Positions 1,398-40,105 of a stretch of 44,581 nt of DNA are shown piece after piece. Positions within the stretch are counted from its first letter, which is position 1; each line of letters begins with the position of its first letter. This stretch comes from a phage. The stretch is from the sequence record PZ445532.1. The stretch is one strand, 5' to 3'. The position numbers were made by a program, and so were the translations under genes. The notes under the pieces were generated by a model, which did no database searches, had not been told where the DNA came from, and worked only from the letters and a program-made list of their open reading frames with translations.

Positions 1398-2918
1398 ATG
1401 ACCGTTAACGTTGACAACCAGCACCCGCTCTATGCGCGCATCGCGCCAGAGTGGAAAATGATCCGTGACTGCGTAGCAGGGGAGCGCGCCGTGAAGGCGT
1501 GCGGCCCCTTGTACCTGCCACACCCCGCAAGCGGCGACACCACCGACCCGAAATCACGGGCACGGTATAAGGCATATAAGCAACGTGCTGTATTCCTGAA
1601 CGCCACCGCCCGCACACTGAATGCGCTGTTAGGGGTCGCCTTCGCCAAACCGGTGAGTATGGACCTTTCCGGGGCAATGGCTGACCTTATTGATGACGTT
1701 GACGGCAGCGGTATGCCGCTGGCGCAACTCCTGCGCGGTGCTATGTCTGAAGTTCTGCAATCAGGCCGTGCCGGGTTTATGGTCGACTACGACCGCCAGG
1801 CGCATTTTGACGAACTGGGTAACGTAGTACCGCAGACAGCCGCTGAAATGGCAGCACACCGCCCGCTTATCCGCCTGTATACGGCTGAACAGATCATTAA
1901 CTGGCGGCAGACCCACGGGGTCGACACGCTAATCGTGCTGAAGGAAACGGACGAAATCAGCACCGAAGACCCGGACGACTTCGCAAACCACGAGGTGACC
2001 ATCTGGACCGAGCTTCGCATGATTGAAGGCAAGGCACACGCCCGCCGCTGGTTTTACAATGCGGACACGTCAGAAGTGCAAATGGACTTGCCGCGGGGAT
2101 TCACCCGCACCGATCTTGTACCACTGGTGGATGCCTCCGGTAATGCGCTTACTCAACTGCCATTTTGCTGGTGTGGCGCGGTGGACAACAACGCGACACC
2201 GGACGCCGCACCACTGGCGGATATTGCATCCATCAACATTAAGCACTACAACGCCGAAGCAGACGTCGCCGAGATTGCGCACATCGTGGGTCAACCTACC
2301 CTCATTGCGACCGGCCTTACCCAGTCATGGGCGGACAAGAACCTGAAAGGCGGCATCGCGCTCGGGGCAACTAAGGGCGTTATCCTGGGCCAGAACATGG
2401 ACGCCAAACTGCTTCAGGCCGAAGAACGAAACCTATCGGTCGCACTGTGTGAACGCCGAGAGTTGCAAATGGCTAAACTGGGCGCGGCCCTTGTCGAGAA
2501 AGGGACCGCACCTAAGACGGCAACCGAGGCGGCTTATGATGCGCAGACTGATAACAGTATCCTGTCTCTGATTGCCGGTAACGTTGAGAAGGCTTTCAAC
2601 CGTGCGCTGCAAATTGTCCAGCTATTCACTGGTGACACCGCCGATCAGCGCGTAACGCTGAACAAGTTCTACACCGAAATCACGGTTGACGCGCAGCTTA
2701 TGACCGCAATGATGGCTGGTGTGCAGACCGGTACGGTCCGTCTGGCGGACTTTATCAAGTGGATGATGGCCCAGGGCGTTATTGACGACTCGCAAACCGT
2801 TGAGCAGGTGGAAGACGAATTGCGAAATCAGAATCCATTGCCTCAAATGTCCCCGGATGCGGTAGAATCTACCGAAGAAGACCCGGACAAGGTAGCGGAC
2901 AATGGCGAAGACAATTAA
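1398..2918 (+). CDS. portal protein
   Basis: 506-aa ORF directly after the large terminase. RBS AAGGAAA 6 nt upstream. Acidic C-terminus. Call rests on size and gene order. Confidence 0.8.
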   Translation: MTVNVDNQHPLYARIAPEWKMIRDCVAGERAVKACGPLYLPHPASGDTTDPKSRARYKAYKQRAVFLNATARTLNALLGVAFAKPVSMDLSGAMADLIDDVDGSGMPLAQLLRGAMSEVLQSGRAGFMVDYDRQAHFDELGNVVPQTAAEMAAHRPLIRLYTAEQIINWRQTHGVDTLIVLKETDEISTEDPDDFANHEVTIWTELRMIEGKAHARRWFYNADTSEVQMDLPRGFTRTDLVPLVDASGNALTQLPFCWCGAVDNNATPDAAPLADIASINIKHYNAEADVAEIAHIVGQPTLIATGLTQSWADKNLKGGIALGATKGVILGQNMDAKLLQAEERNLSVALCERRELQMAKLGAALVEKGTAPKTATEAAYDAQTDNSILSLIAGNVEKAFNRALQIVQLFTGDTADQRVTLNKFYTEITVDAQLMTAMMAGVQTGTVRLADFIKWMMAQGVIDDSQTVEQVEDELRNQNPLPQMSPDAVESTEEDPDKVADNGEDN

Positions 2919-4005
2919 TCAATATATGGCGGATCGAATGATCCGCCGACACATCTTCACCCAGCGCCTGAGCAATGACCAGGCGCGAAGGGTGCTGGCT
3001 ATGTGGGAGAAGTTCCGGCCTACGTTACTGGGAAAGCTGACTGAGTTGCTTGATGGCAAATCGTCAATGAACAACAAGGCACTTTCAACCCTGCTAACGC
3101 AACTCGACAAGACCGTTAAAACAGAACTGCGCACCGAGTTTAAGGCGTTGGCTGAAAGCCTTCAGGAGTTTGCCGACACCGAGGCCGATTATCTCGCCGA
3201 CACATTAACGGCAGCGATCCAGCCGGTGGTCGCCGTACCGGCGGTCGAGGTGGTTGGCGTAGTGACCGGTGCGCAGATCGCAGCGACGGCAATTAAAAAC
3301 CCGTTCCAGGGTAATACGATGATGCAATGGCCTGACTCACTTTCTGAGTGGACCAGGACGCAGATCGGCAATCAGGTGCGCGCCGGATTCATCCAGGGCA
3401 AGCCGACTATGGAAATTATTGCGGACGTGAGGCGCGCGCTCGGCGGTCGTAGTGCGCAAGCTATCTCGAGCGTTGTTAAATCCGCAGTAAACCACTATGC
3501 GGCGACTGCCCGCGAACTAATGGTAAAAGCAAATGACGATATTCTCGAAGGTCGCCAATGGTTATCTACATTGGACACGCATACTTCTCCCATGTGCCAG
3601 CTACGCGATCGCCTGTTTTATCCGGTTGATGTTACTCCCGACACCAAAGGAAAGCGCGGCGGGAAAGTGGTGGCTGGATCACAATATGGCGCTGGTCCAG
3701 GCAAGCTACATTATTGCTGCCGTTCGACGGAGACGTGGAAAGTCAAAGGTATGGAAGATTGGCCCAGTGGTAAGCGTCCGGCACTGAAGGCTGACGCGGG
3801 GCGATTGCTGAGTGAGCAGGTCGACGCGCAGACTGATTTCTTCTCATGGGTGCAGCGCCAGCCGCGCCATATCCTGGAGGAATTATACGGGGTGCAACGC
3901 GCCGACCAGATTATGCGCGGCGTGAAAGTCCCGAAGATGTTCACCGATTCCGGCGAACTAATGACTATCGCACAGCTTAAAAACCGGGGGTTATGGCGTG
4001 ATTAA
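2902..4005 (+). CDS. head morphogenesis protein (minor head protein, SPP1 gp7 / Mu F-like)
   Basis: 367-aa ORF overlapping the portal stop. Typical position after the portal gene. Confidence 0.6.
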   Translation: MAKTINQYMADRMIRRHIFTQRLSNDQARRVLAMWEKFRPTLLGKLTELLDGKSSMNNKALSTLLTQLDKTVKTELRTEFKALAESLQEFADTEADYLADTLTAAIQPVVAVPAVEVVGVVTGAQIAATAIKNPFQGNTMMQWPDSLSEWTRTQIGNQVRAGFIQGKPTMEIIADVRRALGGRSAQAISSVVKSAVNHYAATARELMVKANDDILEGRQWLSTLDTHTSPMCQLRDRLFYPVDVTPDTKGKRGGKVVAGSQYGAGPGKLHYCCRSTETWKVKGMEDWPSGKRPALKADAGRLLSEQVDAQTDFFSWVQRQPRHILEELYGVQRADQIMRGVKVPKMFTDSGELMTIAQLKNRGLWRD

Positions 4006-4327
4006 ATATGCGGCTATTGGACTGGTTATGGGTCTGGCGGTAGGATTCTGGCTAGGTGACTCCTACCGCGCTGGCGTAGTGGCGAAGGCGGCGCAAGAAG
4101 CGCAATCCCAAGCCCAACGGCAGCAAACTAAAGTAATTGAGCGCTCCGTGCAGGCAGAACAAGCCCGCGACGTGGAATACCGGACTATCACAAAAGAGGT
4201 TGTTAAATATGTTACGCGCCCTAACCGCCCTGATTGTAGTTTTGACGCTGAGCGCGTGCGGATCAAGCAGCGTGCCGTTGATGCCGCTAACGGAATCGGC
4301 ACTGCGACCGCCGTGCAAGTTCGATAA
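3998..4327 (+). CDS. i-spanin (Rz-like inner-membrane spanin component)
   Basis: GTG start. N-terminal transmembrane helix IGLVMGLAVGFWLG followed by a charged Gln/Ala-rich coiled-coil-like region. Overlapped in the +1 frame by a lipoprotein ORF. Confidence 0.6.
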   Translation: MIKYAAIGLVMGLAVGFWLGDSYRAGVVAKAAQEAQSQAQRQQTKVIERSVQAEQARDVEYRTITKEVVKYVTRPNRPDCSFDAERVRIKQRAVDAANGIGTATAVQVR

Positions 4328-4439
4328 CCCGTCTGCGGACCCCGACGAAGATTTGATGATTGACGTGAAAAATATGGAATGCGGGGCGAAGCTAAGGGCG
4401 CAGGTGCTGGAGTTGCAGCAAATAATTAAGGGGCCATAA
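4209..4439 (+). CDS. o-spanin (Rz1-like outer-membrane lipoprotein)
   Basis: 76-aa ORF in the +1 frame relative to the i-spanin. Signal peptide with lipobox LTLSAC|GSS, proline-rich mature part. RBS AAGAGG upstream. Confidence 0.62.
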   Translation: MLRALTALIVVLTLSACGSSSVPLMPLTESALRPPCKFDNPSADPDEDLMIDVKNMECGAKLRAQVLELQQIIKGP

Positions 4440-4451
4440 TGGCCCCTTTTT
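4430..4451. terminator. bidirectional rho-independent terminator
   Basis: GGGGCC-ATAAT-GGCCCC followed by TTTTT. The reverse complement is also followed by a T-rich tract. Sits between convergent genes. Confidence 0.7.
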
Positions 4452-4453
4452 CG

Positions 4454-5218
4454 TTAGCGCGGAATGCCGCAAATCTCGTTGAGTGTTTTCACATCCAGCG
4501 CCACCGCCGTGGATTTTGGCTTGTCCGGGTATGGGATGAATTGCTCAACTTCAGGCCATGCTTTAATCAGCTTCTTGTCAGTATTGTGCAGGTCCAGCAC
4601 ACCGGTAACGGTGAGTTTGAACGCGTCATACTTAGCACGCAACTCACGGCGGGCCTGGTCGTTACGGTCCAGGCGCTTACAGAAGTCATGGTCCGCAGGG
4701 TAATCTGCGCGACCGCGTGGGAGATATATCGGCAGCGCTTTCCCGTCCTCGTCCACTTCGCACACTGACGCGAGCATAACTGTCTCGAACCCCGGAACGA
4801 TATCGCCGAGATCAGGCGCGAGCTTATTCATATATTTCTCTTCCCAGTATCCGCGATGTACGCGGTATTGGTGACCGTCACCGCTCAAGGACAAGGTGCG
4901 AACATTTCCGCCTGCGTTGATTTCGAAAGTGGCGTCGTAAACGCTGCCGATACCTTTCGGGCGGTCGGTGTTATAACTATATGTCGCCTTGTTGGTATAT
5001 ACACTGACGCCGTACATCTGCGACGGGTCATCGACGATTGCGGCAATGCGCTCTAGTAGCTTGGCGAACGTGCGAATGCCTTCCGGCATACAGTCCAGCG
5101 TAATGGCATAAGCCAGGTCGCGCGAGTCCGTCATGATTTGTTTGGCTTCGGTTGCGATTTCGTGGTCGCGCAGGATGTTAGCCAGAATCTGATTTTTAAT
5201 GTCTTTAGTCAGTCTCAT
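4454..5218 (-). CDS. hypothetical protein (second gene of antisense cassette)
   Basis: 254-aa ORF. RBS GAGGA 7 nt upstream of the ATG. No recognisable motif. Co-oriented with the DnaN-like gene. Confidence 0.6.
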   Translation of the reverse strand: MRLTKDIKNQILANILRDHEIATEAKQIMTDSRDLAYAITLDCMPEGIRTFAKLLERIAAIVDDPSQMYGVSVYTNKATYSYNTDRPKGIGSVYDATFEINAGGNVRTLSLSGDGHQYRVHRGYWEEKYMNKLAPDLGDIVPGFETVMLASVCEVDEDGKALPIYLPRGRADYPADHDFCKRLDRNDQARRELRAKYDAFKLTVTGVLDLHNTDKKLIKAWPEVEQFIPYPDKPKSTAVALDVKTLNEICGIPR

Positions 5219-5299
5219 TTTTGTGTCCTCGTTGTTGGGGCTTTCGCCCCGTTTGGTTTAGTTAAACTTGATGTTGCCGCCAATAGGGTGCTTTGTTAG

Positions 5300-5818
5300 C
5301 TACAAACGCATCGGCATGATAACAAGGAAGGCACCGCCTTTGAACAGCACACGTGTCGCCTTGTCTACTCCCTGAAATTCCAGTTTTAAGCTATCAAACT
5401 TACGGTCGAACAATTTAGCAATTTTGCAGGCGTCGGACAGGTATACCCCGGCAAACCCTATAGCCTCCACTTTAGCGCTGTCGAAAGACGTAACACGACG
5501 CCAGTCTGGGAATCTGCCGTCTATGATCTCTACGGGTATGGTACCGATTAATACGTCTTTACTATCAAAGAACGCAGCGGATGTGCCGTCTATGTTGCAG
5601 TATTCGAATTTTGTAGGTAAGCGGCCTTTAATTGCTACTATTTTACTTTCACCTTCGGGAACAACCGCGGACCCGCAGAACAAACGATGACCGTCGGTGG
5701 CCACGATGAATCCTTTCTCGTCGAAAAATACACCATTCAGATAGTACCGCACGTCATTAGTTGCGGCGCACATCATAGCGGCTTTAAGATCGGCATAGTT
5801 AACTTTAATCATTGTCAT
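5300..5818 (-). CDS. truncated beta-sliding-clamp (DnaN) homologue, domain II plus C-terminal segment
   Basis: 172 aa from MTMIKVNY (internal start of the 5300..6259 ORF, RBS GAGGAA). Contains DVRYYLNGVFF, ATDGHRL, DGRFPDWRRV and C-terminal VIMPMRL. These match the conserved E. coli DnaN blocks DVRYYLNGMLF, ATDGHRLA, DGRFPDYRRV and C-terminal VVMPMRL (recalled from memory). Confidence 0.7.
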   Translation of the reverse strand: MTMIKVNYADLKAAMMCAATNDVRYYLNGVFFDEKGFIVATDGHRLFCGSAVVPEGESKIVAIKGRLPTKFEYCNIDGTSAAFFDSKDVLIGTIPVEIIDGRFPDWRRVTSFDSAKVEAIGFAGVYLSDACKIAKLFDRKFDSLKLEFQGVDKATRVLFKGGAFLVIMPMRL

Positions 5819-5960
5819 TTCCTCATGTTGGTGTGCAACCAATATACTGCAACCAACATACGCAATGCAAGCGAATTTTGCGATTATTTTTATCACTGAT
5901 AATATTAGAGGCGTGAAGTCGAGCGGGTGGCCCGCTCTGCCACAATCCCAGGGGGATAGC

Positions 5961-6662
5961 ATGAAACTTACTAAAGCAGAATATGACGCGTTGCCGGAAG
6001 GTATGAAGGCGCTTTTTGTCGCCGATGGTGATGGGTATAAATCAACGTTCATGACCGCCGAAGAAGTACAGGCGGAGATCAAGGGTCTGAAAGACAACAA
6101 CGCGAAGCTGGTTAGCGAGAAGAAAGCAGAAGCCGAACGCCGCGCCGAAGCTGAGCGCCTTGCGAAAGAGAAAGAGGAAGCCGCCGCGCGCAAAAATGGC
6201 GACCTCGAAGCGATCGACAAGTCCTGGAAAGATAAGTTTGCAAAACACGAAGCAGACACATCGGGAAAAATCGAAGCCTACCGCAAGCAGATCCACGATC
6301 TAACCATCGGCAGCGCTGCCAAAGACCTGGCGTCGAAGCTATTCGGTAAGAATGCGGGCATCATGCAACGCCACGTTATGGACCGCCTGACGCTGGAGGA
6401 CGGCGAAGACGGCAGCTTGAAGGTGCGCGTCCTGCAGGATGGCAAACCGTCCGCGCTAACTATGGAAGAGCTTGAAAAAGAGTTCCGTAATAACGCCGAT
6501 TTTGCATCCGTCCTGGCTGGCACGCCAGCCGGTGGTGCGCCGAGCAAACCGACGCATGTTGTCGAAGATGTGAAGTCGAAAATCTCTATGGGCCACAGCT
6601 TCGGCATCACCGATCTGACGAAACAGGCTGGTGAAATCATCGCTAAAATGGGCGACGAGTAA
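5961..6662 (+). CDS. head scaffolding protein (putative)
   Basis: 233 aa from MKLTKAEYD (RBS GGGGGA). Charged, Ala/Glu/Lys-rich coiled-coil-like sequence directly upstream of the major capsid gene. Confidence 0.55.
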   Translation: MKLTKAEYDALPEGMKALFVADGDGYKSTFMTAEEVQAEIKGLKDNNAKLVSEKKAEAERRAEAERLAKEKEEAAARKNGDLEAIDKSWKDKFAKHEADTSGKIEAYRKQIHDLTIGSAAKDLASKLFGKNAGIMQRHVMDRLTLEDGEDGSLKVRVLQDGKPSALTMEELEKEFRNNADFASVLAGTPAGGAPSKPTHVVEDVKSKISMGHSFGITDLTKQAGEIIAKMGDE

Positions 6663-6666
6663 GCAA

Positions 6667-6691
6667 ATTGCCCGCGAAAGCGGGCAATTTT
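6667..6691 (+). terminator. hairpin, possible attenuator between scaffold and capsid genes
   Basis: ATTGCCCGC-GAAA-GCGGGCAAT followed by TTTTG. Confidence 0.4.
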
Positions 6692-6759
6692 GCGAGCGCG
6701 TAAATCTAAGGTAACATTAACGGTACTGGGCGAATGCTCACAACTCAAAGGATTTCGAT

Positions 6760-24932: not shown

Positions 24933-24996
24933 GATGTTTTCCTTTTTAGTGGGAGGCGGTATTGCCTCCCGATGTGGTTAAGATACTGCAACCAAC

Positions 24997-25467
24997 CTAT
25001 TGGTTGCAAGTGAATTTTGCAACGTTTATTGCGTAAATTTTCGGGACTAAATCGCCGCACGCCCGACGAATTGCCGCGATGTTCTTCGGACAGTCTTCAA
25101 TGATGACCAGTTCCGATACGTCCGCATAGCAGACCATTTTGAACACAGCGCACGCCTTAAACTCTGGCGGCGGGGTATCGTCCAGCATGTGGCGCATAAA
25201 CAACCGGCCTGTAGGGAATACTTCCAGTTGTTCGGCGGTGGTGTCCCAACATTCTCGCTGCCGGTTGGTCAGATACGCGATCTCGAAGCCTTGCTCTTTG
25301 TACATGGTCAGCAGCAGCAGCATATCCATGTTAAGGTCTTCGCGGACGTGCGCCTTGTGCCACTTCGCCCAGAAGGTGGATTTAGTTTTTATACCCGGCA
25401 CCAGGTCGGCACGCGCATCGCTTGAACCGTTAATAACTCCATCCAAATCGCAAATCAGTAATTTCAT
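24997..25467 (-). CDS. HAD-superfamily hydrolase (putative phosphatase/nucleotidase)
   Basis: N-terminal LICDLDGVI matches HAD motif I (DxDG). Confidence 0.55.
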   Translation of the reverse strand: MKLLICDLDGVINGSSDARADLVPGIKTKSTFWAKWHKAHVREDLNMDMLLLLTMYKEQGFEIAYLTNRQRECWDTTAEQLEVFPTGRLFMRHMLDDTPPPEFKACAVFKMVCYADVSELVIIEDCPKNIAAIRRACGDLVPKIYAINVAKFTCNQ

Positions 25468-28051: not shown

Positions 28052-29472
28052 TTGCGCGCCTTTTTAGCTTTCATGTATTCCATCAAGTCGTCCTGAATAT
28101 CGCGCTTACTGTCGCGACGCTCGGCGACCAATTCATCCAGTGTGCCACGCGCCTGGATAATGTAGACGAATACCGGACGAGGGTGTCCGGCTTGCATCTG
28201 GCGAACCGGCCCGATACGCTCCACAATCTGCGAAAAATGCTCATAGTTCCAGGTGTCGGAGAAGATGGCAAGGTGGTGTCCGCCATCCTGCAAGTTAAGG
28301 CCGTGACCCGCCGATGCCGGGTGCGCGAACATGATGGGGATCTCGCCCCTGTTCCACGCCTCCATGTCTTTATTGCCCTGCTTACCTTTACCCAACGCAA
28401 CGCCGTGCGGAAATTTCTTCTTGAGACGCGCAAGATCATGCTTGTACTGGTACGCGACGAGCAACGGTGCGCCGTTCAACTCCTCCACGATACTTTCCAG
28501 CGCGTCCAGCTTAGCGTCGTGAATCTTCACCCATTCGTCGGTGCGCTCACCGTCTTCGTCCACCTTATACACGGCCCCGGAAGCAAGCTGAAGGCACTTG
28601 ATAGTCTTCGACGCAGCGTTCGCCGCCTCCACTGTTCCGCTTTCCAGTTCCGCAAATAGCTCCGCTTCGAACTGGTCATAAATCTTGCGGGCTTTCTTCG
28701 GCAGGTCCACAACAACCGGCGTATATATTGGCTTGTCACATCCGAAATATTCAGCCGCATCAACGGTTAGCGACACGTCTGACAGGCGTTGTTGTATTTC
28801 TTTCTCGGAGTTTTTTAGCGGGGCGTGCTGCATAGTGAAGCTACCAGGCTTAACAGGCTTGCTAATAAACCAGCGGTCTGTGAATGCCTTATAGCTACTG
28901 CCGAGGCGTTCGCCACCGTCGATAAACCACGTCTGACCCCATAGGTCTTTCAGTCCGTTTGGTGCGGGTGTGCCAGTTAGGTTAATCCAGCGCTTTACGC
29001 GCTTGTGTGCGATCGCGGCCAGGGCGCGGGCGCGCTTACTGCCCTGCTTGCTGCGGTAGCCTTTCAGCTTAGTGGATTCATCGGCAACAACGACCGTAAA
29101 GGGCCACTCGTCGCCGCAATACTCGACAAGCCACTCAACCACATCATAGTTAACGCAAACCACGTTAGCGTCGCTCTCGAGCGCCGCGATGCGGTCCTTC
29201 TCTGGCCCAGTGCCGTCTACTACCAGCAGGGCTGGGAAACGCCATTTCTCCTGCTCCGGGGGCCATGTACCGGACGCAACGCGAAGCGGGGCCAGCACCA
29301 GTACGCGGTCCTCCTGGCTGGACAGGATACCAGTCTGGAACATTTTATTCAGCGCCCACATAGTCGCGCCGGTTTTACCCGACCCCATTGTCGCCCATAT
29401 ATTGCATCGCTTATGCTTGAGTATGAACGCGGTTATCAACTTCTGATATTCGCGACGTCGGAAACGTGCCAT
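28048..29472 (-). CDS. SNF2/superfamily II DNA helicase
   Basis: 474 aa from MARFRRREYQ. Walker A ATMGSGKTG, DExx box VVVADESTKLK, C-terminal helicase-domain-like motifs. VRR-NUC gene close by, as is common in phages. Confidence 0.8.
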   Translation of the reverse strand: MARFRRREYQKLITAFILKHKRCNIWATMGSGKTGATMWALNKMFQTGILSSQEDRVLVLAPLRVASGTWPPEQEKWRFPALLVVDGTGPEKDRIAALESDANVVCVNYDVVEWLVEYCGDEWPFTVVVADESTKLKGYRSKQGSKRARALAAIAHKRVKRWINLTGTPAPNGLKDLWGQTWFIDGGERLGSSYKAFTDRWFISKPVKPGSFTMQHAPLKNSEKEIQQRLSDVSLTVDAAEYFGCDKPIYTPVVVDLPKKARKIYDQFEAELFAELESGTVEAANAASKTIKCLQLASGAVYKVDEDGERTDEWVKIHDAKLDALESIVEELNGAPLLVAYQYKHDLARLKKKFPHGVALGKGKQGNKDMEAWNRGEIPIMFAHPASAGHGLNLQDGGHHLAIFSDTWNYEHFSQIVERIGPVRQMQAGHPRPVFVYIIQARGTLDELVAERRDSKRDIQDDLMEYMKAKKARK

Positions 29473-29476
29473 ATCT

Positions 29477-29710
29477 TTATTCCGCCTTTTTCCAGACTTC
29501 GGTTTCACTGTTCCAGTTCCTTTTTGTGGCGTCGTAGTTGGTGCTGTGCCCGATGTGCACACCTGTCGCCCGGAAGCGCTTAAACTTCTGCCAGCACACC
29601 GTCAACGGCAGCGGGGAATTAATGCCAGCAATAAACCATACGCGATCGCCTGGTTTACATTCGCCCAGCTTGGTGAGTCGGTAATGTTCTTTCATCGTCA
29701 TGTCTCCCAA
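29477..29710 (-). CDS. hypothetical protein
   Basis: 77-aa ORF preceded by hairpin GGCGGG-ACAAG-CCCGCC. Confidence 0.45.
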   Translation of the reverse strand: MGDMTMKEHYRLTKLGECKPGDRVWFIAGINSPLPLTVCWQKFKRFRATGVHIGHSTNYDATKRNWNSETEVWKKAE

Positions 29711-29738
29711 AAATGGCGGGACAAGCCCGCCGTATTAA

Positions 29739-29912
29739 TTACTTTTGCTCTGCGCGGTAGCGGCGCTGCCGTTCGCGCTCTTTTTTATTGCGGCACGATT
29801 TGCACTCTGCCCGATACCCATCCGGGCTTCGCGCAGTCTTGCCGGTGTATTTGTGGAACTGGGATAGCGGTTTAACGCAGCCGCAATTACTGCAACGTTT
29901 TTCTTCAATCAT
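29739..29912 (-). CDS. small zinc-ribbon protein
   Basis: 57 aa from MIEEKRCSNCGC...CKSC (RBS GAGGA 9 nt upstream). Two CxxC pairs. Confidence 0.4.
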   Translation of the reverse strand: MIEEKRCSNCGCVKPLSQFHKYTGKTARSPDGYRAECKSCRNKKERERQRRYRAEQK

Positions 29913-29952
29913 TTCTAAAATCCTCGGTAGAGCTAACCTGCTCACTATACTG

Positions 29953-30231
29953 TTAAGCGACCAATTCAGCAACCAATAAATCACAGTCGGCTATGTTGTC
30001 GATGACGCGAACGTCAGCACCACGGCGGGCCATTCGCTCATGTTCTCGTACCTGGTGCGGCTTCGGTTTGCCACCAGGGCGCTTAACTTCGACGAAAACT
30101 ATCTTGCCGTTGATGATGATAATAAGATCGGGCGCACCTGCGCGCCCCTCCCAAGCCACTTTACGGCAGAATCCGCCGACGGCTTTCACCCGTCTCATCA
30201 AGAGACTTTGAATCTTGCCTTCTGGTGTCAT
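29953..30231 (-). CDS. VRR-NUC domain nuclease
   Basis: 92 aa. GAPDLIIIINGKIVFVEVKRPGGKPKPHQ matches the VRR-NUC PD-(D/E)xK core. Confidence 0.75.
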   Translation of the reverse strand: MTPEGKIQSLLMRRVKAVGGFCRKVAWEGRAGAPDLIIIINGKIVFVEVKRPGGKPKPHQVREHERMARRGADVRVIDNIADCDLLVAELVA

Positions 30232-30560
30232 TGTGCGTGCCTCATACGGACTATCTCACCTACGATATACCCGATTAAATACGTCATAACCTCTTGGTTG
30301 TTGAGGTCCGGCGCAATCCCACGATCCCGCATAAGATTCAGCGCGACGTGGGTAGCCTCATGCGCCACCGTGCTAATGCCCGCCGTGTGTGGCATCCAGA
30401 CGAGGCACGTACCTTTACCAAAAACGACGAAAGCATCTGCAATAAAGTCTTCGGGGCAAGGCTGATATCCGGTTATCCGCTTGCATTTAGCCGCCACCTC
30501 GTCAGCGCACGGTGAAACGAAAAACTCATAATTATAAACGTCTACTTTTACTTTTTTCAT
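30228..30560 (-). CDS. small HExxH-motif protein (putative zinc metallopeptidase-like)
   Basis: 110 aa with VAHEATHVAL (HExxH). Confidence 0.5.
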   Translation of the reverse strand: MKKVKVDVYNYEFFVSPCADEVAAKCKRITGYQPCPEDFIADAFVVFGKGTCLVWMPHTAGISTVAHEATHVALNLMRDRGIAPDLNNQEVMTYLIGYIVGEIVRMRHAQ

Positions 30561-30564
30561 AATA

Positions 30565-32856
30565 TTATTTCCTATACCTCATCATGCAATCTCCTTCCGC
30601 GGCAAGCGGGAAGCCTTTCGCCCAAACCGGCAGGTCGCACATCAGCGCGCACAACTCCTCGGTTGTGTAGTCGTCGGTATCCGGCACTTCGGTTATCAGT
30701 TCATCGTGTACGGACAGTACGATCTCATACCCTGCAGCTTCAACGCCCGGCATGGACCACGCGAGGATATCGCGACACAGCGCCTGTACGATGTTTTCCG
30801 TTAGTTTGCCGCCGTAGGTATACTGGAAGCCCCACTGGCGCGTAGTCTGATTCTCGCCCTGGTATTTGATGCGGGTGCTGGTGCGCTTCTTACCGGTGTC
30901 TTCGTCGATCTCGGTCGTGACAGACAGCGCGATGCCGGGATAGCTCATGATGCGCCCTGAAGGCAACTCAATTTTAAGCCACCACCCCGCCGCGTTCGGA
31001 TCGTCGCGCTCCTCGTCGAAGGTTGGGTCATGCTTCGCCTTCGTTCGCACTATCTTGAGCGCTTTCCTGCCATCCTGGCGAACGTTCGCGCCAGCCCAGT
31101 ATGCTTTGCCCGGATTGCGGATCGCGCAGAGCACCGCGTCTTCCAGTTCAGCCCAAAATGCTACCGTCTTCGGGTGAGCCTCACGCCACATACGTTTGAT
31201 CGCATCGCACGTCAGCCATACGTTTTTCGGCAGTATGTAAGTTGGGCGCTCGTCTTTCTTGCCAGGCTTCGGCGGGCGCTTAGCTTCGTTAATGCGGGCG
31301 TATTCATAGCCCCGTTTCGCCGCTGCCCAAATATGATCGGGGAATGTGCCCTTCATGACGTCCGCCATCGCATACAGGTCGAGGCCCAGGTTTTTAGCAA
31401 ACTGCAGGAACGCGGCAACGCCGCCACCATAACCCAGCCCCAATTCGCACGCCTTACCAATCTGGCGTAAGTCTTTGCGGTTGGCTTTGATGTATTCCGG
31501 GTCGAGGCCAAACATCTTACCGGCAGTTTCACAATAGATATCGCGACCCGCCCTAAACACCATTAGCGCGGTTTTCTCGCCAGCGATCCAGGCGAGGCCA
31601 CGCCCTTCCACGTTGGAATAGTCCGCTACGACAAACTTCTTGCCCTTAGCCGGAATAATGCACCCGCGAACGGTCGAGGCTGTTAACTTCGATATGTCAT
31701 ACGCCCAGTGTGCCGTCCCGCGTAACAGGGAATTGATGCCGTTGGTGAGCATGTGCGACCGGACCCAAAAAGAAACGTCGCTCTCGCCATCCCGGCGCTT
31801 AATCTTCCCTTCGTGGTCGTCGCTATACTCGCCGCGTGCCAGGTTTTGCGGCTGGAAGCCCTTACCGGCCCAGCGTAGCGTGCGCTTTGCCCCACCATAC
31901 TGAAGACAACCACGGCGGCGACCATCGGCAGACAGCCCATTTACGAGCGGATTGTACTTAGTCGATGCCGTTGATGACGCACCGAGGCGCATCTCGATAA
32001 GCACTTTGCCTTCGTCGGGGAAGTCCGGGTCTTCCAGCAGGTCGTTAAGTGTGGATTTCTGCGCGTTGTGGATTGTGAACGCAGGCGCAAGGTCGCGCAG
32101 CGCTGGCAGGAAGTCATTGCCGGTCAGCTTACCGCCGAAGCGCTCCCAGGCTTCTTCCTTCAGCTCTTCTTTATGCGCCTGCACCGCTTTGATCGCGGCG
32201 TTCGCCAGGTCAACGTCCACATAGAAGCCGCGGTCATTGATCAACTGGTCTATACGCAGGATTTCGTCTTCCTTCGGCGTGTTACCCCAGTCCGGTATGC
32301 GCCAGTAGACTTCCCTCATAGCTATAATATCCAGCGCGGCATAGCGCAGGAATTTAGCCCACTCCTCGGGGTGCGTCTCGCGCGTGTAGCGGCGGATTTT
32401 GTAGGTCTTAGGGGTTGGCTTACAGAATCGTTTGATCAGCGCCTTGCCCGCCTTATCCTTCGCGTGCTCTGCGTCAACGCCCAGCACCTGGCATTGCATA
32501 TCGAGGCTACCCGGCAGCGCGTGCCGAAAGGCCATAATCATGGTATCTTCGATCTGGCCTACCGGCAGGTCAATGCCCCACTTCTCGCGAATAACCAGGC
32601 GGTCAAACAGAAGGCCGTTAGCCATCACGATTTTTGCTTTCTTGCGGGATACCTGGCGGAGCGCCTTGCGCAGTTCACGCGGCATTGTAGGGGACTCGGT
32701 GCAATCCCATGTCTGCACGCGCCCCTCGTCGATGGCGTAGGTGCAAATCATAATCTCGGTTGTCGGGTGCTCCGCGTAGGCGTATGCGCCAACTTTCTTC
32801 AGGTCCACCCCGCTAAATGTCTCGGTATCGAGAAAAAGGCGTTCGAAGTCTTTCAT
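30565..32856 (-). CDS. DNA polymerase, family A, with N-terminal 3'-5' exonuclease
   Basis: 763 aa. Exo I motif FLDTET. Pol motif A VVADYSNVEGR, motif B RQIGKACELGLGYGGG, motif C LSVHDELITEV. Confidence 0.95.
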   Translation of the reverse strand: MKDFERLFLDTETFSGVDLKKVGAYAYAEHPTTEIMICTYAIDEGRVQTWDCTESPTMPRELRKALRQVSRKKAKIVMANGLLFDRLVIREKWGIDLPVGQIEDTMIMAFRHALPGSLDMQCQVLGVDAEHAKDKAGKALIKRFCKPTPKTYKIRRYTRETHPEEWAKFLRYAALDIIAMREVYWRIPDWGNTPKEDEILRIDQLINDRGFYVDVDLANAAIKAVQAHKEELKEEAWERFGGKLTGNDFLPALRDLAPAFTIHNAQKSTLNDLLEDPDFPDEGKVLIEMRLGASSTASTKYNPLVNGLSADGRRRGCLQYGGAKRTLRWAGKGFQPQNLARGEYSDDHEGKIKRRDGESDVSFWVRSHMLTNGINSLLRGTAHWAYDISKLTASTVRGCIIPAKGKKFVVADYSNVEGRGLAWIAGEKTALMVFRAGRDIYCETAGKMFGLDPEYIKANRKDLRQIGKACELGLGYGGGVAAFLQFAKNLGLDLYAMADVMKGTFPDHIWAAAKRGYEYARINEAKRPPKPGKKDERPTYILPKNVWLTCDAIKRMWREAHPKTVAFWAELEDAVLCAIRNPGKAYWAGANVRQDGRKALKIVRTKAKHDPTFDEERDDPNAAGWWLKIELPSGRIMSYPGIALSVTTEIDEDTGKKRTSTRIKYQGENQTTRQWGFQYTYGGKLTENIVQALCRDILAWSMPGVEAAGYEIVLSVHDELITEVPDTDDYTTEELCALMCDLPVWAKGFPLAAEGDCMMRYRK

Positions 32857-35751: not shown

Positions 35752-36003
35752 TTATTTTGTCTCCCAGCGGTCAATAGTTCTTGCTTCGGACGCAACGGCG
35801 AAGCGAACATATTCCAGATTGGAGTCCGCCCAAATATAAAAGTCGGGGTTAGTAAAGGTGGTGCGCTTAATTTGCGCGGGGGTGTTACGTCGTTTATCTA
35901 TTACGGCAACTCGTGACTGAAAGCTGCCGATGCGTTCGAATAGCCAATAGTACGGGCGCTGGTCGCGGGAATCCACCGCCTCGATTAGCGTGAAGCGTGC
36001 CAT
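35752..36003 (-). CDS. hypothetical protein
   Basis: 83-aa ORF, RBS GAGGA, directly after a minus-strand terminator. Confidence 0.5.
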   Translation of the reverse strand: MARFTLIEAVDSRDQRPYYWLFERIGSFQSRVAVIDKRRNTPAQIKRTTFTNPDFYIWADSNLEYVRFAVASEARTIDRWETK

Positions 36004-36015
36004 TGTCTCGTCCTC

Positions 36016-36043
36016 TAAAAAGAGGCCCGCAGATTAGCGGGCC
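36016..36043 (-). terminator. rho-independent terminator (minus strand)
   Basis: On the minus strand GGCCCGC-TAATCT-GCGGGCC followed by TCTTTTT, directly after the stop of the acidic first gene. Confidence 0.6.
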
Positions 36044-36051
36044 GGATAATA

Positions 36052-36567
36052 TTAATCTTCCAGTTCGAAATAAGTTTCGACGATTTCTTTAAGATCTTTG
36101 TGGAAGTCTTCGACGTCTTCATCTTCCAGCTTGGCGATTGATTTGATCTCGAACGATTCCAGCAGGTCGTCAAATTCGTCGTTCGCGTCGTCGTCGTCAC
36201 CACCAGCGATAATAGCGGCATATTGTTTGATTTCGTCGCGCATCTCCGCCAGCGGATCGGCATCTTTCTTGCCTTTGCCTTTCGCCGGAGCTTTTTTACC
36301 CTTCGCTGGTTTTTCGTCTTCGGCTTCATCGTCGTCATCTTCTACGATTTCTTTTTTTGCCTTACCTTTCGCCGGTGCTTTTTTGGTTTTCGCCGGTTTT
36401 TCGTCTTCGGTTTCATCGTCGTCATCTTCTACGACTTCTTTTTTGGCCTTAGACGGCTTCTTGTCTTCCTGCTTACCAACGGCAGCGCCAACGGTTTCAT
36501 AATGTTTAGCGATGATTTCCAGTGCTACTACGCCGCGAGTGATCAGGTTTACGATTTGTTCAAACAT
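36052..36567 (-). CDS. highly acidic tandem-repeat protein, first gene of leftward operon
   Basis: 172 aa from MFEQIVNL (RBS GGAGA). Two near-identical units of about 30 aa (KKE[VI]VEDDDDE[TA]EDEKPAK[TG]KKAPAKGK). Acidic C-terminus. Confidence 0.65.
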   Translation of the reverse strand: MFEQIVNLITRGVVALEIIAKHYETVGAAVGKQEDKKPSKAKKEVVEDDDDETEDEKPAKTKKAPAKGKAKKEIVEDDDDEAEDEKPAKGKKAPAKGKGKKDADPLAEMRDEIKQYAAIIAGGDDDDANDEFDDLLESFEIKSIAKLEDEDVEDFHKDLKEIVETYFELED

Positions 36568-36908
36568 GGTATATCTCCGATTGGTTAAGTTTAGGTGTCG
36601 GCAGTTAACTTCGTCGGTGGCCTTAACATAGTGCCTGGTTACGCGTTCTCCCGTTCGGGTAGTGGACCAGGTTATATAATCACGGTTGGGAATCCTGACA
36701 CTTCGATCCGGCCCCTGCGTTGCCCCTCTCCAGTTTGCGTCCTGCATCCTGTCGACGGAGTGAATAATAGATTGGTTGCAGAAGGGAGTCAACAACTAAT
36801 TTAAAAAAAAAGCGCCGAGGCAAAATGCAACGGCGCTAACCAATAAGAGACAATGAGACGGGATTTATTATTACACGCGTGCGCGCCCGTTTCAATATTC
36901 CAGAGGAG

Positions 36909-36954
36909 TTGACACCCCGCGGTTTTAGGTGTAGTTTCGTTGGTCATTAACCAA
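36909..36954 (+). promoter_or_regulatory. sigma70-like promoter with palindromic operator in front of the HTH gene
   Basis: TTGACA (36909..36914), 17-bp spacer, TAGTTT (36932..36937). Palindrome TTGGT-CATTA-ACCAA (36940..36954) just upstream of SD GAGGG. Confidence 0.45.
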
Positions 36955-36968
36955 CTGAGGGCAGGGCA

Positions 36969-37298
36969 ATGAATATCAACGACGCAATCGAAATGTTAAC
37001 GAAGACTGTTTGCAGTGAGACAAGCCGGTCATGGGCGTATACCGATGCCGTGGGGGCGGTGCTATTTGAGATTGAACGTCTGCGCAGTGTAGAAAAAGAA
37101 TTACGCGCCAGGCTGGAATTGCTCAACGGTACGGCGGCGAGCAAGCTGCAGAAGCACAATGAAGAAATGGAAGAATACAAAAAGCAGGTTATACGTTTGC
37201 GCGCCGAGGGAAAATCCTGGGCGATGATTGCCGAGTTGACTGGGATTAATCAGAGCACAGTGCGCTCCTGGGTACGCAATAATAAAACTTCTAAGTAA
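36969..37298 (+). CDS. HTH DNA-binding protein (putative transcriptional regulator)
   Basis: 109 aa. C-terminal helix-turn-helix-like KSWAMIAELTGINQSTVRSWVRN. Confidence 0.6.
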   Translation: MNINDAIEMLTKTVCSETSRSWAYTDAVGAVLFEIERLRSVEKELRARLELLNGTAASKLQKHNEEMEEYKKQVIRLRAEGKSWAMIAELTGINQSTVRSWVRNNKTSK

Positions 37299-39890: not shown

Positions 39891-40105
39891 CATAAAATCC
39901 AGGATGCACGACGCACGGCAGCATGATGCAAATTGCGGTCGTCGATGAACTAGGCAACCAATGCGAGTTGCAGAATGGTGGGTGGAAAATGCAGTTTGCA
40001 GTCACAGCAGATAGCGATCGACTTTTTCATGCGCGTGATTAATATTGGTTGCATTCGCCCTGGCACACTGCTATATTGGTTGCACACCAACATGAGGACT
40101 GAACA

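What the first reader, a model, noticed from the sequence alone, without database searches (positions are those of the whole stretch)
4454..5818. Antisense two-gene cassette inside the head-morphogenesis module
Two minus-strand genes (clamp-like, then a 254-aa protein with no recognisable motif) sit between the spanin pair and the scaffold gene. They are bounded by a bidirectional terminator on one side and a divergent promoter region on the other. This layout is typical of accessory (moron-like) insertions that often carry host-takeover or anti-defence functions.
Basis: inference. Interest (0 to 1): 0.6.

Follow-up and report, generated by a model that had tools for sequence, protein, structure and literature searches.

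The report
Swappable accessory genes inside phage head module
Two backward-facing genes inside the head-assembly genes of an E. coli phage occupy a swappable accessory slot: one (Nmad5) is already linked to a bacterial defence, the other is a ring-less fragment of the DNA sliding clamp that keeps only its partner-binding pocket.

Summary
The window is a complete Dhillonvirus (HK578/EP23-like coliphage). At 4454-5818, two minus-strand genes lie between the spanin pair and the scaffold gene, ending at a bidirectional hairpin terminator.

One detail is wrong. The 254-aa protein is a full-length Pfam Nmad5 protein (E=1e-57). In Dhillonvirus, nmad5 is published as dispensable, toxic to clone, and the site of K216E escape from the Tmn defence.

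The locus is a hypervariable accessory slot, not a fixed cassette. Close relatives carry Nmad5 plus mini-clamp in either order, Nmad5 plus an unrelated 109-aa ORF, Nmad5 alone, mini-clamp alone, an unrelated 140-aa ORF, or nothing. The promoter and leader stay constant, and a second copy drives another non-structural operon at 40.1 kb.

The "clamp-like" protein belongs to a widespread 170-190-aa phage family. It equals DnaN domain II plus the C-terminal half of domain III. It lacks domain I and the dimer-interface segment. The 18 residues of the clamp-binding-motif pocket are 83% identical to E. coli DnaN, against 28% overall.

My inference is a ring-less pocket that acts as a decoy or adaptor for clamp-binding peptides. 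Nmad5 shows no enzyme-like fold, and this phage has no DNA-modification partner genes.

Interest is moderate.

The parts
4428..4448 (.). Bidirectional hairpin terminator (AAGGGGCC-ATA-ATGGCCCCTT). It ends the rightward portal/MuF/spanin transcript and the leftward accessory operon. It overlaps the Rz1 stop codon and lies 5 nt from the Nmad5 stop codon.
   Evidence: about -16 kcal/mol on both strands, z about -3.3. Terminators are annotated on both strands at the same site in HK578.
4454..5218 (-). nmad5 gene: 254 aa, Pfam PF18757, promoter-distal gene of the operon. It carries wild-type K216, the residue whose K-to-E change gives Tmn escape in phage SMA8.
   Evidence: Literature: (PMC11846954).
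5236..5251 (.). GC hairpin with a GAAA tetraloop (GGGGC-GAAA-GCCCC) between the two genes. On the plus strand it is followed by a T-run and looks like a terminator. On the minus strand it has no U-run, so it is likely an intra-operon stem-loop.
   Evidence: -11.5 kcal/mol, z -3.1. It is conserved in EP23 and SSL-2009a.
5258..5283 (-). Non-coding remnant of the last codons (G-G-N-I-K-F-N-stop) of the alternative 109-aa slot gene (phrog_24635). It marks the left recombination junction of the slot.
   Evidence: Alignment of the window, EP23 and SSL-2009a, the translation, and the sequence.
5300..5818 (-). Mini beta-clamp gene (172 aa from 5818, more likely 170 aa from the ATG at 5812). It equals DnaN domain II plus the C-terminal half of domain III and retains the clamp-binding-motif pocket. 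It is the promoter-proximal gene and has low GC (46.8%).
5820..5870 (-). Leftward sigma-70-like promoter and leader: -35 TTGCAT at 5870-5865, -10 TATATT at 5846-5841, leader GGTTGCACACCAACATGAGGA with the ribosome-binding site GAGGA at 5824-5820. This is the constant part of the slot in every Dhillonvirus variant examined.
5834..5861 (+). Tandem 14-nt repeat TGCAACCAA(T/C)ATAC x2, flanked by the inverted repeat ATGTTGGT/ACCAACAT (5825-5832 and 5852-5859). It is a candidate operator or promoter element shared with three other non-structural operons.
   Evidence: (6 sites against 0.41 expected; 0 of 100 shuffles reach 6).
5878..5907 (+). Candidate rightward promoter for the scaffold and capsid genes (TTGCGA-N16/17-TAATAT), overlapped by the palindrome TATTTTTATCA-C-TGATAATATTA.
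   Evidence: The sequence is invariant in EP23 and SSL-2009a. The match is weak (8/12) and not above chance on its own.
40040..40105 (+). Second copy of the same promoter and leader module (two motif copies, TTGCAT-N17-TATATT, 27 nt identical to 5846-5820). It drives the operon that starts at 40106.
   Evidence: A second copy is also present in EP23.

Best explanation
The region is a leftward two-gene operon in a hypervariable accessory slot of a Dhillonvirus, wedged between the spanin genes and the scaffold gene.

How it is expressed. Host RNA polymerase most likely starts at a sigma-70-like promoter (TTGCAT-N18-TATATT). That promoter and its leader are the constant part of the slot and are duplicated in front of another non-structural operon. 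Transcription runs through the mini-clamp gene, a GNRA-capped stem-loop and nmad5, and stops at the bidirectional hairpin shared with the spanin transcript.

The two products are independent cargo, not a functional pair.

(1) The mini-clamp is a 170-aa derivative of the bacterial beta sliding clamp. It keeps domain II and the C-terminal half of domain III, which together form the cleft that binds clamp-binding motifs. It has lost domain I and the segment carrying the dimer interface, so it cannot form the canonical ring. I infer that it works off DNA as a soluble pocket that binds clamp-binding-motif peptides. It would either titrate host clamp partners (clamp-loader delta, Pol III alpha, Hda, repair and translesion factors) or recruit one of them for the phage.

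(2) Nmad5 is a standalone, mostly helical early protein with conserved terminal motifs and no enzyme-like fold. This phage has none of the DNA-hypermodification partner genes. I infer that Nmad5 acts by binding a conserved host or replication factor. That would explain its reported toxicity and why one surface charge change (K216E), rather than deletion, alters the outcome with the Tmn defence.

Shown: gene reality, family membership, slot variability, promoter duplication, pocket conservation, loss of the ring-forming parts. Inferred: transcription timing, peptide binding, decoy or adaptor role, and a non-enzymatic role for Nmad5.
For: Slot variability with conserved flanks:
- window and EP23: Nmad5 plus mini-clamp
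- WF5505, rolling and 101114BS4: swapped order
- SSL-2009a type: Nmad5 plus a 109-aa phrog_24635 protein, in about 60 records
- BF9: Nmad5 alone
- TheodorHerzl: mini-clamp alone
- HK578: an unrelated 140-aa ORF
- Teewinot: a 38-codon Nmad5 remnant only

The junctions are precise, and a remnant of the alternative gene's 3' end survives in the window. The leader TTGGTTGCACACCAACA sits upstream of whichever gene is promoter-proximal in six variants, and a second copy lies near 40 kb. The promoter motif occurs 6 times against 0.41 expected.

Mini-clamp:
- The AlphaFold2 model is confident (pLDDT 93.5, pTM 0.89).
- The top Foldseek hits are E. coli DnaN at probability 1.0.
- The family profile scores 88.1 bits on DnaN(126-253+313-366) against 60.7 bits on DnaN(126-312). 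Half IIIb alone scores 22.8 bits and half IIIa alone 1.0.
- The 18 pocket residues listed in review PMC11139829 are on average 83% identical to E. coli DnaN across 54 family members, against 28% for all aligned positions. The C-terminal MPMRL is among them.
- The dimer-interface residues I272, L273, E298 and E304 and all of domain I are absent.
- GC is 46.8%, in the lowest 1.1% of windows of that size.

Nmad5:
- The Pfam hit is full length.
- The family has 2687 representative clusters, and the 150 best hits listed are all standalone proteins of 90-253 aa.
- The conserved positions are hydrophobic, Pro or Gly, with no invariant catalytic-type residues.
- No hydroxymethylase, kinase or aGPT-Pplase genes are annotated in the closely related EP23 genome, unlike Yuavirus.
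- In other phages Nmad5 sits in replication or early operons.
- Dhillonviruses are sensitive to type I and II restriction, unlike the DNA-modified Queuovirinae.
- Published work: nmad5 is dispensable, toxic to clone, and K216E rather than deletion gives Tmn escape.
Against: - No experiment or complex prediction shows that the mini-clamp binds any peptide. Pocket conservation could reflect fold constraints or binding to a phage partner.
- Its oligomeric state is unknown. A non-canonical oligomer, or even a ring, cannot be excluded from a monomer model.
- The family also occurs in phages that probably depend on the host replisome (USP_18 has a replication-initiation protein and an antirepressor). 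A general host-replisome decoy would be self-harming there.
- N320 is Ala in the window protein and L177 varies across the family.
- The promoter hexamers match only 8/12, and no transcript data exist.
- The Nmad5 model has three low-confidence segments (67-94, 117-130, 234-241). A cryptic active site cannot be excluded.
- The association of Nmad5 with thymidine-hypermodification clusters in Yuavirus is real.
Confidence: 0.55

Rival explanations
1. The mini-clamp is a true processivity or tethering factor. It oligomerises (for example, four 1.5-domain subunits making a six-domain ring) and holds the phage family-A DNA polymerase or another DNA enzyme on DNA.
For: It is clearly homologous to DnaN. 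The 150-DVRYY-154 segment is retained; I recall from my own knowledge that this loop contacts DNA. In several distant phages the gene lies in replication or methylation operons: next to primase and two methyltransferases in IME_EC2, and next to a Dam-type methylase and SSB in PVP-XSN. This phage encodes its own polymerase, helicase-primase and gp2.5-like SSB, as annotated in its close relative EP23.
Against: Domain I and the domain-III segment carrying the canonical interface residues are missing. Only about 10% of near-identical Dhillonviruses carry the gene, and the others replicate without it. No phage ORF has a canonical clamp-binding motif at a terminus. According to the review, a monomeric E. 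coli beta variant cannot support processive synthesis.
Confidence: 0.15
2. Nmad5 is, as its name and the 2025 paper assume, a component of a DNA base-modification pathway. The cassette modifies phage DNA, possibly with the clamp-like protein tethering it, and Tmn senses that modification.
For: In Yuavirus and M6-like phages Nmad5 lies inside the thymidine-hypermodification cluster, with aGPT-Pplase1/2, kinase, radical SAM, a PLP enzyme and an hmU synthase. The authors of PMC11846954 interpret it this way.
Against: This phage has none of those partner genes. No enzyme fold was detected and there are no conserved catalytic-type residues. Deleting nmad5 does not change Tmn sensitivity, whereas K216E does. 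Dhillonviruses are restriction-sensitive. Nmad5 homologues also sit directly after N in lambdoid phages and inside PolA replication operons that have no modification genes.
Confidence: 0.12
3. Nmad5 and the mini-clamp form a functional pair. For example, the conserved C-terminal tail of Nmad5 docks into the mini-clamp or host clamp pocket, with one acting as toxin or effector and the other as modulator.
For: The genes are adjacent and co-transcribed in this phage, EP23 and the WF5505 group. Nmad5 has a nearly invariant C-terminal motif (TLN..CG[IL]P) after a low-confidence linker. Nmad5 is toxic on its own.
Against: All four presence/absence combinations and both orders occur within one genus. 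Outside Dhillonvirus the two families were not adjacent in any locus examined. The Nmad5 tail does not match the Q-phi-x-[LM]-[FL] consensus.
Confidence: 0.1
4. The genes have a head-assembly role, or the clamp-like ORF is a decaying captured fragment of host dnaN with no function.
For: Only the position inside the head-morphogenesis module, and an old annotation in Bcep43, 'DNA Pol III b subunit fragment'.
Against: The genes are on the opposite strand with their own promoter. They are absent from viable relatives. The mini-clamp belongs to a length-conserved family of more than 440 clusters with selectively conserved pocket residues, and shares only about 30% identity with E. coli DnaN.
Confidence: 0.03

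Closest known systems
Dhillonvirus nmad5 (phages SMA8 and SMS22; Yamashita et al. 2025, Commun Biol, PMC11846954)
   Same: Same genus, same locus next to the capsid genes, and the same 254-aa protein type as SMA8. Lys216 sits in the same D-K-K-L context. Homologues in Dhillonviruses are 85-95% identical.
   Different: The paper treats nmad5 as a DNA-modification enzyme. I find no partner genes and no enzyme-like fold. The paper does not describe slot variability or the neighbouring mini-clamp.
Nmad5 of Yuavirus and M6-like Pseudomonas phages (thymidine hypermodification cluster)
   Same: Same Pfam family. The conserved C-terminal ~85 residues align at 35-40% identity.
   Different: There the protein is 186 aa and embedded among aGPT-Pplase1/2, kinase, radical SAM, a PLP enzyme and an hmU synthase, upstream of the DNA polymerase. 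Here it is isolated in the head module with none of those genes.
Bacterial beta sliding clamp (DnaN, E. coli PDB 1MMI/2POL and others)
   Same: Homologous fold (Foldseek probability 1.0). Pocket subsites I and II are conserved, including R152, L155, T172, G174, H175, R176, P242, R246, Y323, M362, P363 and R365, together with the C-terminal MPMRL.
   Different: It has about 1.5 domains instead of three. Domain I, residues ~254-312 and one helix of domain II are deleted. The canonical dimer interface is absent. It scores below the Pfam and TIGRFAM cut-offs.
Monomeric beta-clamp variant I272A/L273A (laboratory construct)
   Same: It is a ring-less clamp that still presents the binding pocket. The review reports that clamp-loader delta binds it about 50-fold more tightly than the dimer, and that it cannot support processive synthesis. 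This is the closest functional analogy for a pocket-only protein.
   Different: It is an engineered full-length three-domain protein, not a natural truncated phage family.
Phage proteins that exploit the host clamp (for example Mu MuC, which uses DnaN for late transcription; PMC12867686)
   Same: It shows that phages target the clamp interaction network for purposes other than replication (title and abstract only).
   Different: MuC carries a clamp-binding motif and binds the host clamp. Here the phage encodes the pocket side of the interaction.
phrog_3007, labelled 'RusA-like Holliday junction resolvase'
   Same: The protein is a clear member of this PHROG (E=2e-56). RefSeq re-annotations copy the label.
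   Different: The label is almost certainly wrong. There is no RusA Pfam hit, and both sequence and fold are those of the beta clamp.

Membership tests
Nmad5 (Pfam PF18757) | Full-length match to the family HMM above the gathering score | tested here: met
   195.9 bits against a cut-off of 27; residues 1-253 cover HMM positions 1-206 of 206. phrog_1965 matches at 3e-61.
Nmad5 (Pfam PF18757) | Family signature motifs: N-terminal xRLT..I, and C-terminal T..KL..WPE..P...LN...G[LI]P | tested here: met
   All are present in the window protein and conserved across 150 diverse representatives.
Nmad5 (Pfam PF18757) | Neighbourhood of nucleotide or DNA-modification genes, which is the basis of the family name | tested here: not met
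   No hydroxymethylase, kinase, aGPT-Pplase, radical SAM or PLP enzyme is annotated in the closely related EP23 genome. Yuavirus has them.
Nmad5 (Pfam PF18757) | A biochemical role in base modification | not testable with these tools
   No fold or catalytic motif supports it. It needs LC-MS of virion DNA with and without nmad5.
Beta sliding clamp (DnaN; PF00712/PF02767/PF02768, TIGR00663) | Three tandem clamp domains of about 366 aa in total | tested here: not met
   The protein is 170-172 aa and covers DnaN ~129-253 plus 313-366 only. PF02767 scores 24.4 bits (cut-off 27) and TIGR00663 scores 28.8 bits (cut-off 137.65).
Beta sliding clamp (DnaN) | Head-to-tail dimer interface (I78 and F106 in domain I; I272, L273, E298 and E304 in domain III) that closes the ring | tested here: not met
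   Both interface segments lie in the deleted regions.
Beta sliding clamp (DnaN) | Clamp-binding-motif pocket, subsites I and II | tested here: met
   The 18 pocket residues are 83% identical to E. coli DnaN on average across 54 family members, against 28% overall. In the window protein 16 of 18 are identical; the exceptions are N320A and V344D, and V344 is not conserved among true clamps either.
Beta sliding clamp (DnaN) | Processivity function on DNA after loading by a clamp loader | not testable with these tools
   This needs biochemistry. I noticed no clamp-loader gene in the annotation of the closely related EP23 genome.
RusA Holliday junction resolvase (PHROG label) | RusA fold or Pfam RusA domain | tested here: not met
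   There is no RusA hit in Pfam or NCBIfam. The predicted fold is that of the beta clamp.
Phage accessory ('moron-like') locus | Variable presence among close relatives, with conserved flanks | tested here: met
   At least seven slot configurations occur within the genus. The junctions are precise.
Phage accessory ('moron-like') locus | Own promoter and terminator, independent of the surrounding operon | tested here: inconclusive
   The terminator is clear. The promoter is inferred from 8/12 hexamer matches, genus-wide conservation and duplication of the promoter-leader module. No transcript data exist.
Phage accessory ('moron-like') locus | Dispensable for lytic growth | tested here: met
   Natural isolates lack Nmad5 (HK578, TheodorHerzl, Teewinot), lack the mini-clamp (most), or lack both. 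An engineered nmad5 deletion is viable.
Known anti-phage defence proteins (PADLOC) | Match to a defence-system model | tested here: not met
   Neither protein has a hit.

The most novel reading that the evidence does not exclude
The 170-190-aa phage 'DNA pol III beta' proteins are a natural class of ring-less, pocket-only mini-clamps. They act as soluble decoys or adaptors for the bacterial clamp-interaction network. They would titrate or redirect host proteins that carry clamp-binding motifs, such as clamp-loader delta, Pol III alpha, Hda, mismatch-repair or translesion factors, and perhaps RecBCD. That would make them a previously unrecognised host-takeover or anti-defence mechanism, carried as swappable cargo by many siphophage genera. 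An extension: Nmad5 is a second, independent effector that binds a conserved replication-associated host factor, and its surface around K216 determines whether Tmn fires.
Probability: 0.3. Interest if true: 0.75.

Novelty: new variant of a known kind. Interest (0 to 1): 0.55.

Why it matters
The beta-clamp pocket is the hub of bacterial replication and repair, and it is an antibiotic target. A natural, widespread phage protein that presents only that pocket would be a new way for viruses to interfere with, or borrow from, the host replisome. It would also be a ready-made tool for trapping clamp partners.

Nmad5 is a large family (about 2,700 clusters at 50% identity) that is currently labelled as a DNA-modification component by guilt by association. 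Here it stands alone, without modification genes and without an enzyme-like fold. That changes how the published Tmn-escape result should be read: protein sensing or interference rather than sensing of modified DNA.

The slot is also useful in practice. A constant promoter and leader with exchangeable cargo, inside an otherwise conserved structural module, is a natural insertion site for engineering Dhillonvirus therapy phages.

The PHROG label 'RusA-like Holliday junction resolvase' for this clamp family is an annotation error that is spreading through RefSeq.

Tried and rejected
- NCBIfam and PADLOC gave nothing useful for either protein.
- A PDB sequence search for Nmad5 returned only chance hits.
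- The BFVD search returned only other uncharacterised Nmad5-like phage proteins.
- The afdb50 library was not available.
- Rfam found no RNA family in 4200-6100.
- I scanned all coding-strand ORFs of the phage for canonical clamp-binding motifs at protein termini. The only hit was a spurious overlapping ORF, so there is no obvious phage ligand for the pocket.
- I considered the Nmad5 N-terminus (KNQILANIL) and C-terminus (TLNEICGIP) as clamp-binding motifs. I rejected both: the Gln is not conserved in the family, and the tail does not fit Q-phi-x-[LM]-[FL].
- I looked for Nmad5 next to the mini-clamp in Snoke, Skate, Bcep43 and USP_18, and for the mini-clamp next to Nmad5 in Yuavirus, HK542 and C130_2. 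I found none.
- Literature searches for truncated or clamp-like phage proteins found no description of this family.
- The paper I recall as having defined the Nmad domains (Iyer et al. 2013) is not held in the library.
- I first read the C-terminal part of the mini-clamp as the first half of domain III, following the phmmer alignment. The fragment test corrected this to the second half.
- The first mapping of pocket residues used mafft --keeplength and was wrong. I redid it.
Full report
**What the window is.** The 44.6-kb window is a complete Dhillonvirus genome (HK578/EP23/SSL-2009a group of E. coli siphophages). Megablast of 3900-6700 finds 159 phage records, almost all Escherichia or Shigella Dhillonviruses. 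The best full-length match is Shigella phage EP23 at 92.9% identity. The gene order is terminase, portal, MuF-like head morphogenesis, Rz/Rz1 spanins, the two antisense genes, scaffold, major capsid. ORF listing and PHROG/Pfam scans confirm it.

**Checking the observation.**
- The second gene more likely starts at the ATG at 5812. That ATG lies 7 nt after the GAGGA ribosome-binding site, and most homologues are 170 aa.
- The hairpin at 4428-4448 is a strong stem-loop on both strands, at about -16 kcal/mol and z about -3.3. HK578 has terminators annotated on both strands at the same place.
- The 139-nt gap to the scaffold gene contains back-to-back sigma-70-like hexamers with 8/12 matches each. 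It also contains a tandem 14-nt repeat and two inverted repeats. The generic promoter scan did not call these hexamers, so they are not convincing on their own.
- Rfam finds no known RNA in the region.

**The 254-aa protein has a family.** It is a full-length Nmad5 protein (PF18757, 195.9 bits; phrog_1965). A 2025 study of Dhillonviruses (PMC11846954) reports four things:
- Escape mutants from the Tmn defence carry K216E (phage SMA8) or the equivalent K296E (phage SMS22) in nmad5.
- Reverting the mutation restores sensitivity.
- Deleting nmad5 gives viable phage that is still Tmn-sensitive.
- nmad5 could not be cloned, apparently because it is toxic.

The window protein has the wild-type Lys216 in the same D-K-K-L context.

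**What Nmad5 looks like.** The name comes from gene neighbourhoods. In Yuavirus and M6-like phages it sits between aGPT-Pplase1 and the hmU synthase of the thymidine-hypermodification cluster. In this phage group no such partner genes are annotated; the closely related EP23 genome shows none.
- Other homologues sit directly after N in the early left operon of lambdoid and Stx phages. Others lie at the end of an early operon in Hungariovirus. Others are inside PolA/DUF2800-exonuclease/SSB/primase replication operons of uncultured phages.
- The family is large: 2687 clusters at 50% identity. The 150 best hits listed are all standalone proteins of 90-253 aa.
- Conservation is concentrated in an N-terminal xRLT..I motif and a C-terminal T..KL..WPE..P...LN...G[LI]P block. 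No catalytic-type residues are invariant.
- The AlphaFold2 model is moderate (pLDDT 74, pTM 0.71). It is mostly long helices with a poorly defined middle.
- Dhillonviruses are sensitive to type I and II restriction, in contrast to the DNA-modified Queuovirinae.

Together these results argue that Nmad5 here is not part of a DNA-modification pathway. Because K216E but not deletion changes the Tmn outcome, a protein-level interaction is more likely than sensing of modified DNA. A 2026 preprint abstract states that Tmn recognises a phage protein, T2 RIIB, which is compatible with protein sensing.

**The clamp-like protein.** It matches beta-clamp models below their family cut-offs (PF02767 24.4 bits, TIGR00663 28.8 bits). 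It matches solved clamps at about 1e-8.
- It belongs to a length-conserved family of 170-190 aa with more than 440 clusters, and it occurs in 287 phage records from many genera.
- With a 54-sequence alignment, AlphaFold2 gives a confident model (pLDDT 93.5, pTM 0.89). Its best PDB matches are E. coli DnaN at probability 1.0, with alignments spanning about 256 columns.
- A family profile aligned to E. coli DnaN (fetched) matches residues 137-253, then matches 313-366 better than 254-293.
- A fragment test confirms this. DnaN(126-253+313-366) scores 88.1 bits against 60.7 bits for DnaN(126-312). Half IIIb alone scores 22.8 bits and half IIIa alone 1.0.

The protein is therefore domain II, with one helix removed, plus the C-terminal half of domain III. 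It ends in the same MPMRL as DnaN. Those two pieces are the ones that build the clamp-binding-motif cleft. I took the pocket residues from a 2024 review. Across the 54 family members, the 18 pocket residues are on average 83% identical to E. coli DnaN, against 28% for all aligned positions. Domain I and the domain-III segment carrying the interface residues I272, L273, E298 and E304 are absent. The canonical ring cannot form, while the pocket has been selectively kept. The PHROG name 'RusA-like Holliday junction resolvase' is not supported.

**Synteny: a slot, not a cassette.** Among Dhillonviruses whose flanks are about 90-95% identical, the spanin-scaffold gap holds:

| Content of the slot | Example phages |
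|---|---|
| Nmad5 + mini-clamp | window, EP23 |
| Mini-clamp + Nmad5 (swapped order) | WF5505, rolling, 101114BS4 |
| Nmad5 + unrelated 109-aa ORF (phrog_24635), about 60 records | SSL-2009a type |
| Nmad5 alone | BF9 and many others |
| Mini-clamp alone | TheodorHerzl/Bas14 |
| Unrelated 140-aa ORF | HK578 |
| 38-codon Nmad5 remnant only | Teewinot |

- About 150 of the 159 matching records have Nmad5, and about 16 have the mini-clamp.
- The exchange junctions are sharp. On the right they fall at the ribosome-binding site and leader. On the left the window still carries the last codons (GGNIKFN-stop) of the 109-aa ORF as non-coding DNA at 5258-5283.
- The HK578 and SSL-2009a slot ORFs share their first six codons, MKENKM.
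- The mini-clamp gene has 46.8% GC against 54.3% for the genome, in the lowest 1.1% of windows of that size. Nmad5 is genome-like at 53.3%.
- Outside the genus the two families do not travel together. Snoke, Skate, Bcep43 and USP_18 have a mini-clamp without a nearby Nmad5. Yuavirus, HK542 and C130_2 have Nmad5 without a nearby mini-clamp.

**Expression signals.** The constant part of the slot is its promoter and leader.
- The leader TTGGTTGCACACCAACA lies just upstream of whichever gene is promoter-proximal in EP23, SSL-2009a, WF5505, TheodorHerzl and HK578, and it is also present at the emptied slot in Teewinot.
- In the window, 27 nt (TATATTGGTTGCACACCAACATGAGGA) are repeated upstream of the plus-strand gene at 40106. 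Both copies have TTGCAT at -35 and TATATT at -10.
- The core motif occurs six times in the genome against 0.41 expected. None of 100 shuffles reaches six. The sites lie upstream of the slot, at 24987 and at 40040/40071 ahead of non-structural genes, and at 36767 in the intergenic region upstream of the helicase-primase operon. None lies upstream of structural operons.
- I infer that the slot is co-regulated with non-structural operons and transcribed by host RNA polymerase. Timing is unknown.
- The stem-loop between the two genes has no U-run on the minus strand, so co-transcription is likely.

**Mechanism, and how sure I am.**
- Shown: both genes are real, both family assignments hold, the slot is variable and dispensable, the promoter module is shared, the pocket is conserved and the ring-forming parts are lost.
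- Inferred: the mini-clamp binds clamp-binding-motif peptides off DNA, as a decoy or adaptor. No phage ORF has a canonical motif at a terminus, which points to host ligands. The review notes that clamp-loader delta binds a monomeric clamp about 50-fold more tightly than the dimer, so a pocket-only protein could be an efficient sink.
- Against a general replisome-poison role: the family also occurs in phages that probably use the host replisome. In some phages it sits next to DNA methyltransferases, which hints at an adaptor role.
- For Nmad5 I favour a non-enzymatic, host- or replication-factor-binding role. This rests on negative structural evidence and on published genetics.
- I put about 0.55 on the overall picture and about 0.3 on the specific decoy/adaptor mechanism.

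**Comparison with what is known, and novelty.** The Nmad5 part is already known in this genus, although my evidence disputes its functional label. The mini-clamp family is widely annotated as 'DNA polymerase III beta subunit' or 'RusA-like resolvase'. I found no paper in the searchable library that describes its domain composition or proposes a function. It fails membership of the sliding-clamp family on domain number and dimer interface, and it meets membership on the pocket. I therefore file it as a new variant of a known kind.

**Verdict.** The locus is an accessory slot linked in the literature to defence interactions, but it is not a unit cassette. One of its genes is near-core and has a named family. 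Interest is moderate at 0.55. It would be higher if the pocket-decoy mechanism were confirmed.

Noticed in passing
window 40040-40105, 24987-25000, 36767-36780 (and 5834-5861): The motif TGCAACCAAYATAC (TATATTGGTTGCA in the direction of the gene) marks the upstream regions of four non-structural operons: 6 sites against 0.41 expected. The 40.07-kb copy shares 27 identical nt, including the leader and ribosome-binding site, with the slot promoter. It may be a phage-specific promoter or operator class and a substrate for cargo-moving recombination.
   Followed up: partly
L011 (phage HK542) 2695-3318; also Stx1/Stx2 phages and HK244: A 207-aa protein whose C-terminal half is related to Nmad5 (about 33% identity over residues 157-253) sits directly downstream of the antiterminator N in the early left operon of lambdoid and Shiga-toxin phages. 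It has no DNA-modification genes nearby.
   Followed up: partly
L021 (IME_EC2) 1816-4022; L023 (Vibrio phage PVP-XSN) 2489-3784: In distant phages the mini-clamp gene lies immediately next to DNA methyltransferase genes: flanked by two in IME_EC2, and followed by a Dam-type methylase and SSB in PVP-XSN. This may hint at a methylase-related adaptor role.
   Followed up: no
L005 (Snoke, Kagunavirus) 3501-4022; L008 (Bcep43) 3504-4085; L006 (Skate) 3495-4031: In unrelated siphophage genera the mini-clamp gene is again a lone opposite-strand gene inside or abutting the head module, ending at a bidirectional terminator in Snoke and Skate. The antisense-in-head-module placement recurs beyond Dhillonvirus.
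   Followed up: partly
phrog_3007; RefSeq annotation of EP23p08 and many other records: The beta-clamp-derived family is labelled 'RusA-like Holliday junction resolvase' in PHROGs. The label has been copied into many RefSeq phage annotations. Neither sequence nor fold supports it.
   Followed up: yes
L015 (HK578) 907-1329 and L002 (SSL-2009a) 2858-3187: Two unrelated slot ORFs (140 aa and 109 aa) share their first six codons, MKENKM. The right-hand recombination junction therefore lies just inside the coding region. The 109-aa protein (phrog_24635) also has 52-63% identical homologues in a Pantoea phage and in about 150-kb E. coli and Salmonella myophages.
   Followed up: partly
window 30565-32856 versus EP23 29110-32298: The DNA polymerase ORF is 763 aa in the window but is annotated as 1062 aa in EP23. 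This suggests an insertion (an intein or homing element) or a different gene structure in one of them.
   Followed up: no
window 36001-37000: This is the second low-GC stretch of the genome (47.5%). It lies at the large divergent intergenic region between the leftward replication genes and the rightward helicase-primase operon, probably the main early control region. It carries one copy of the promoter motif.
   Followed up: no
L013 (Teewinot) 1648-2694: In Teewinot the accessory slot is deleted down to a 38-codon Nmad5 remnant. The annotated 1047-nt 'gp7' appears to be the scaffold gene extended across the deletion scar, so it is probably a start-codon mis-call.
   Followed up: no
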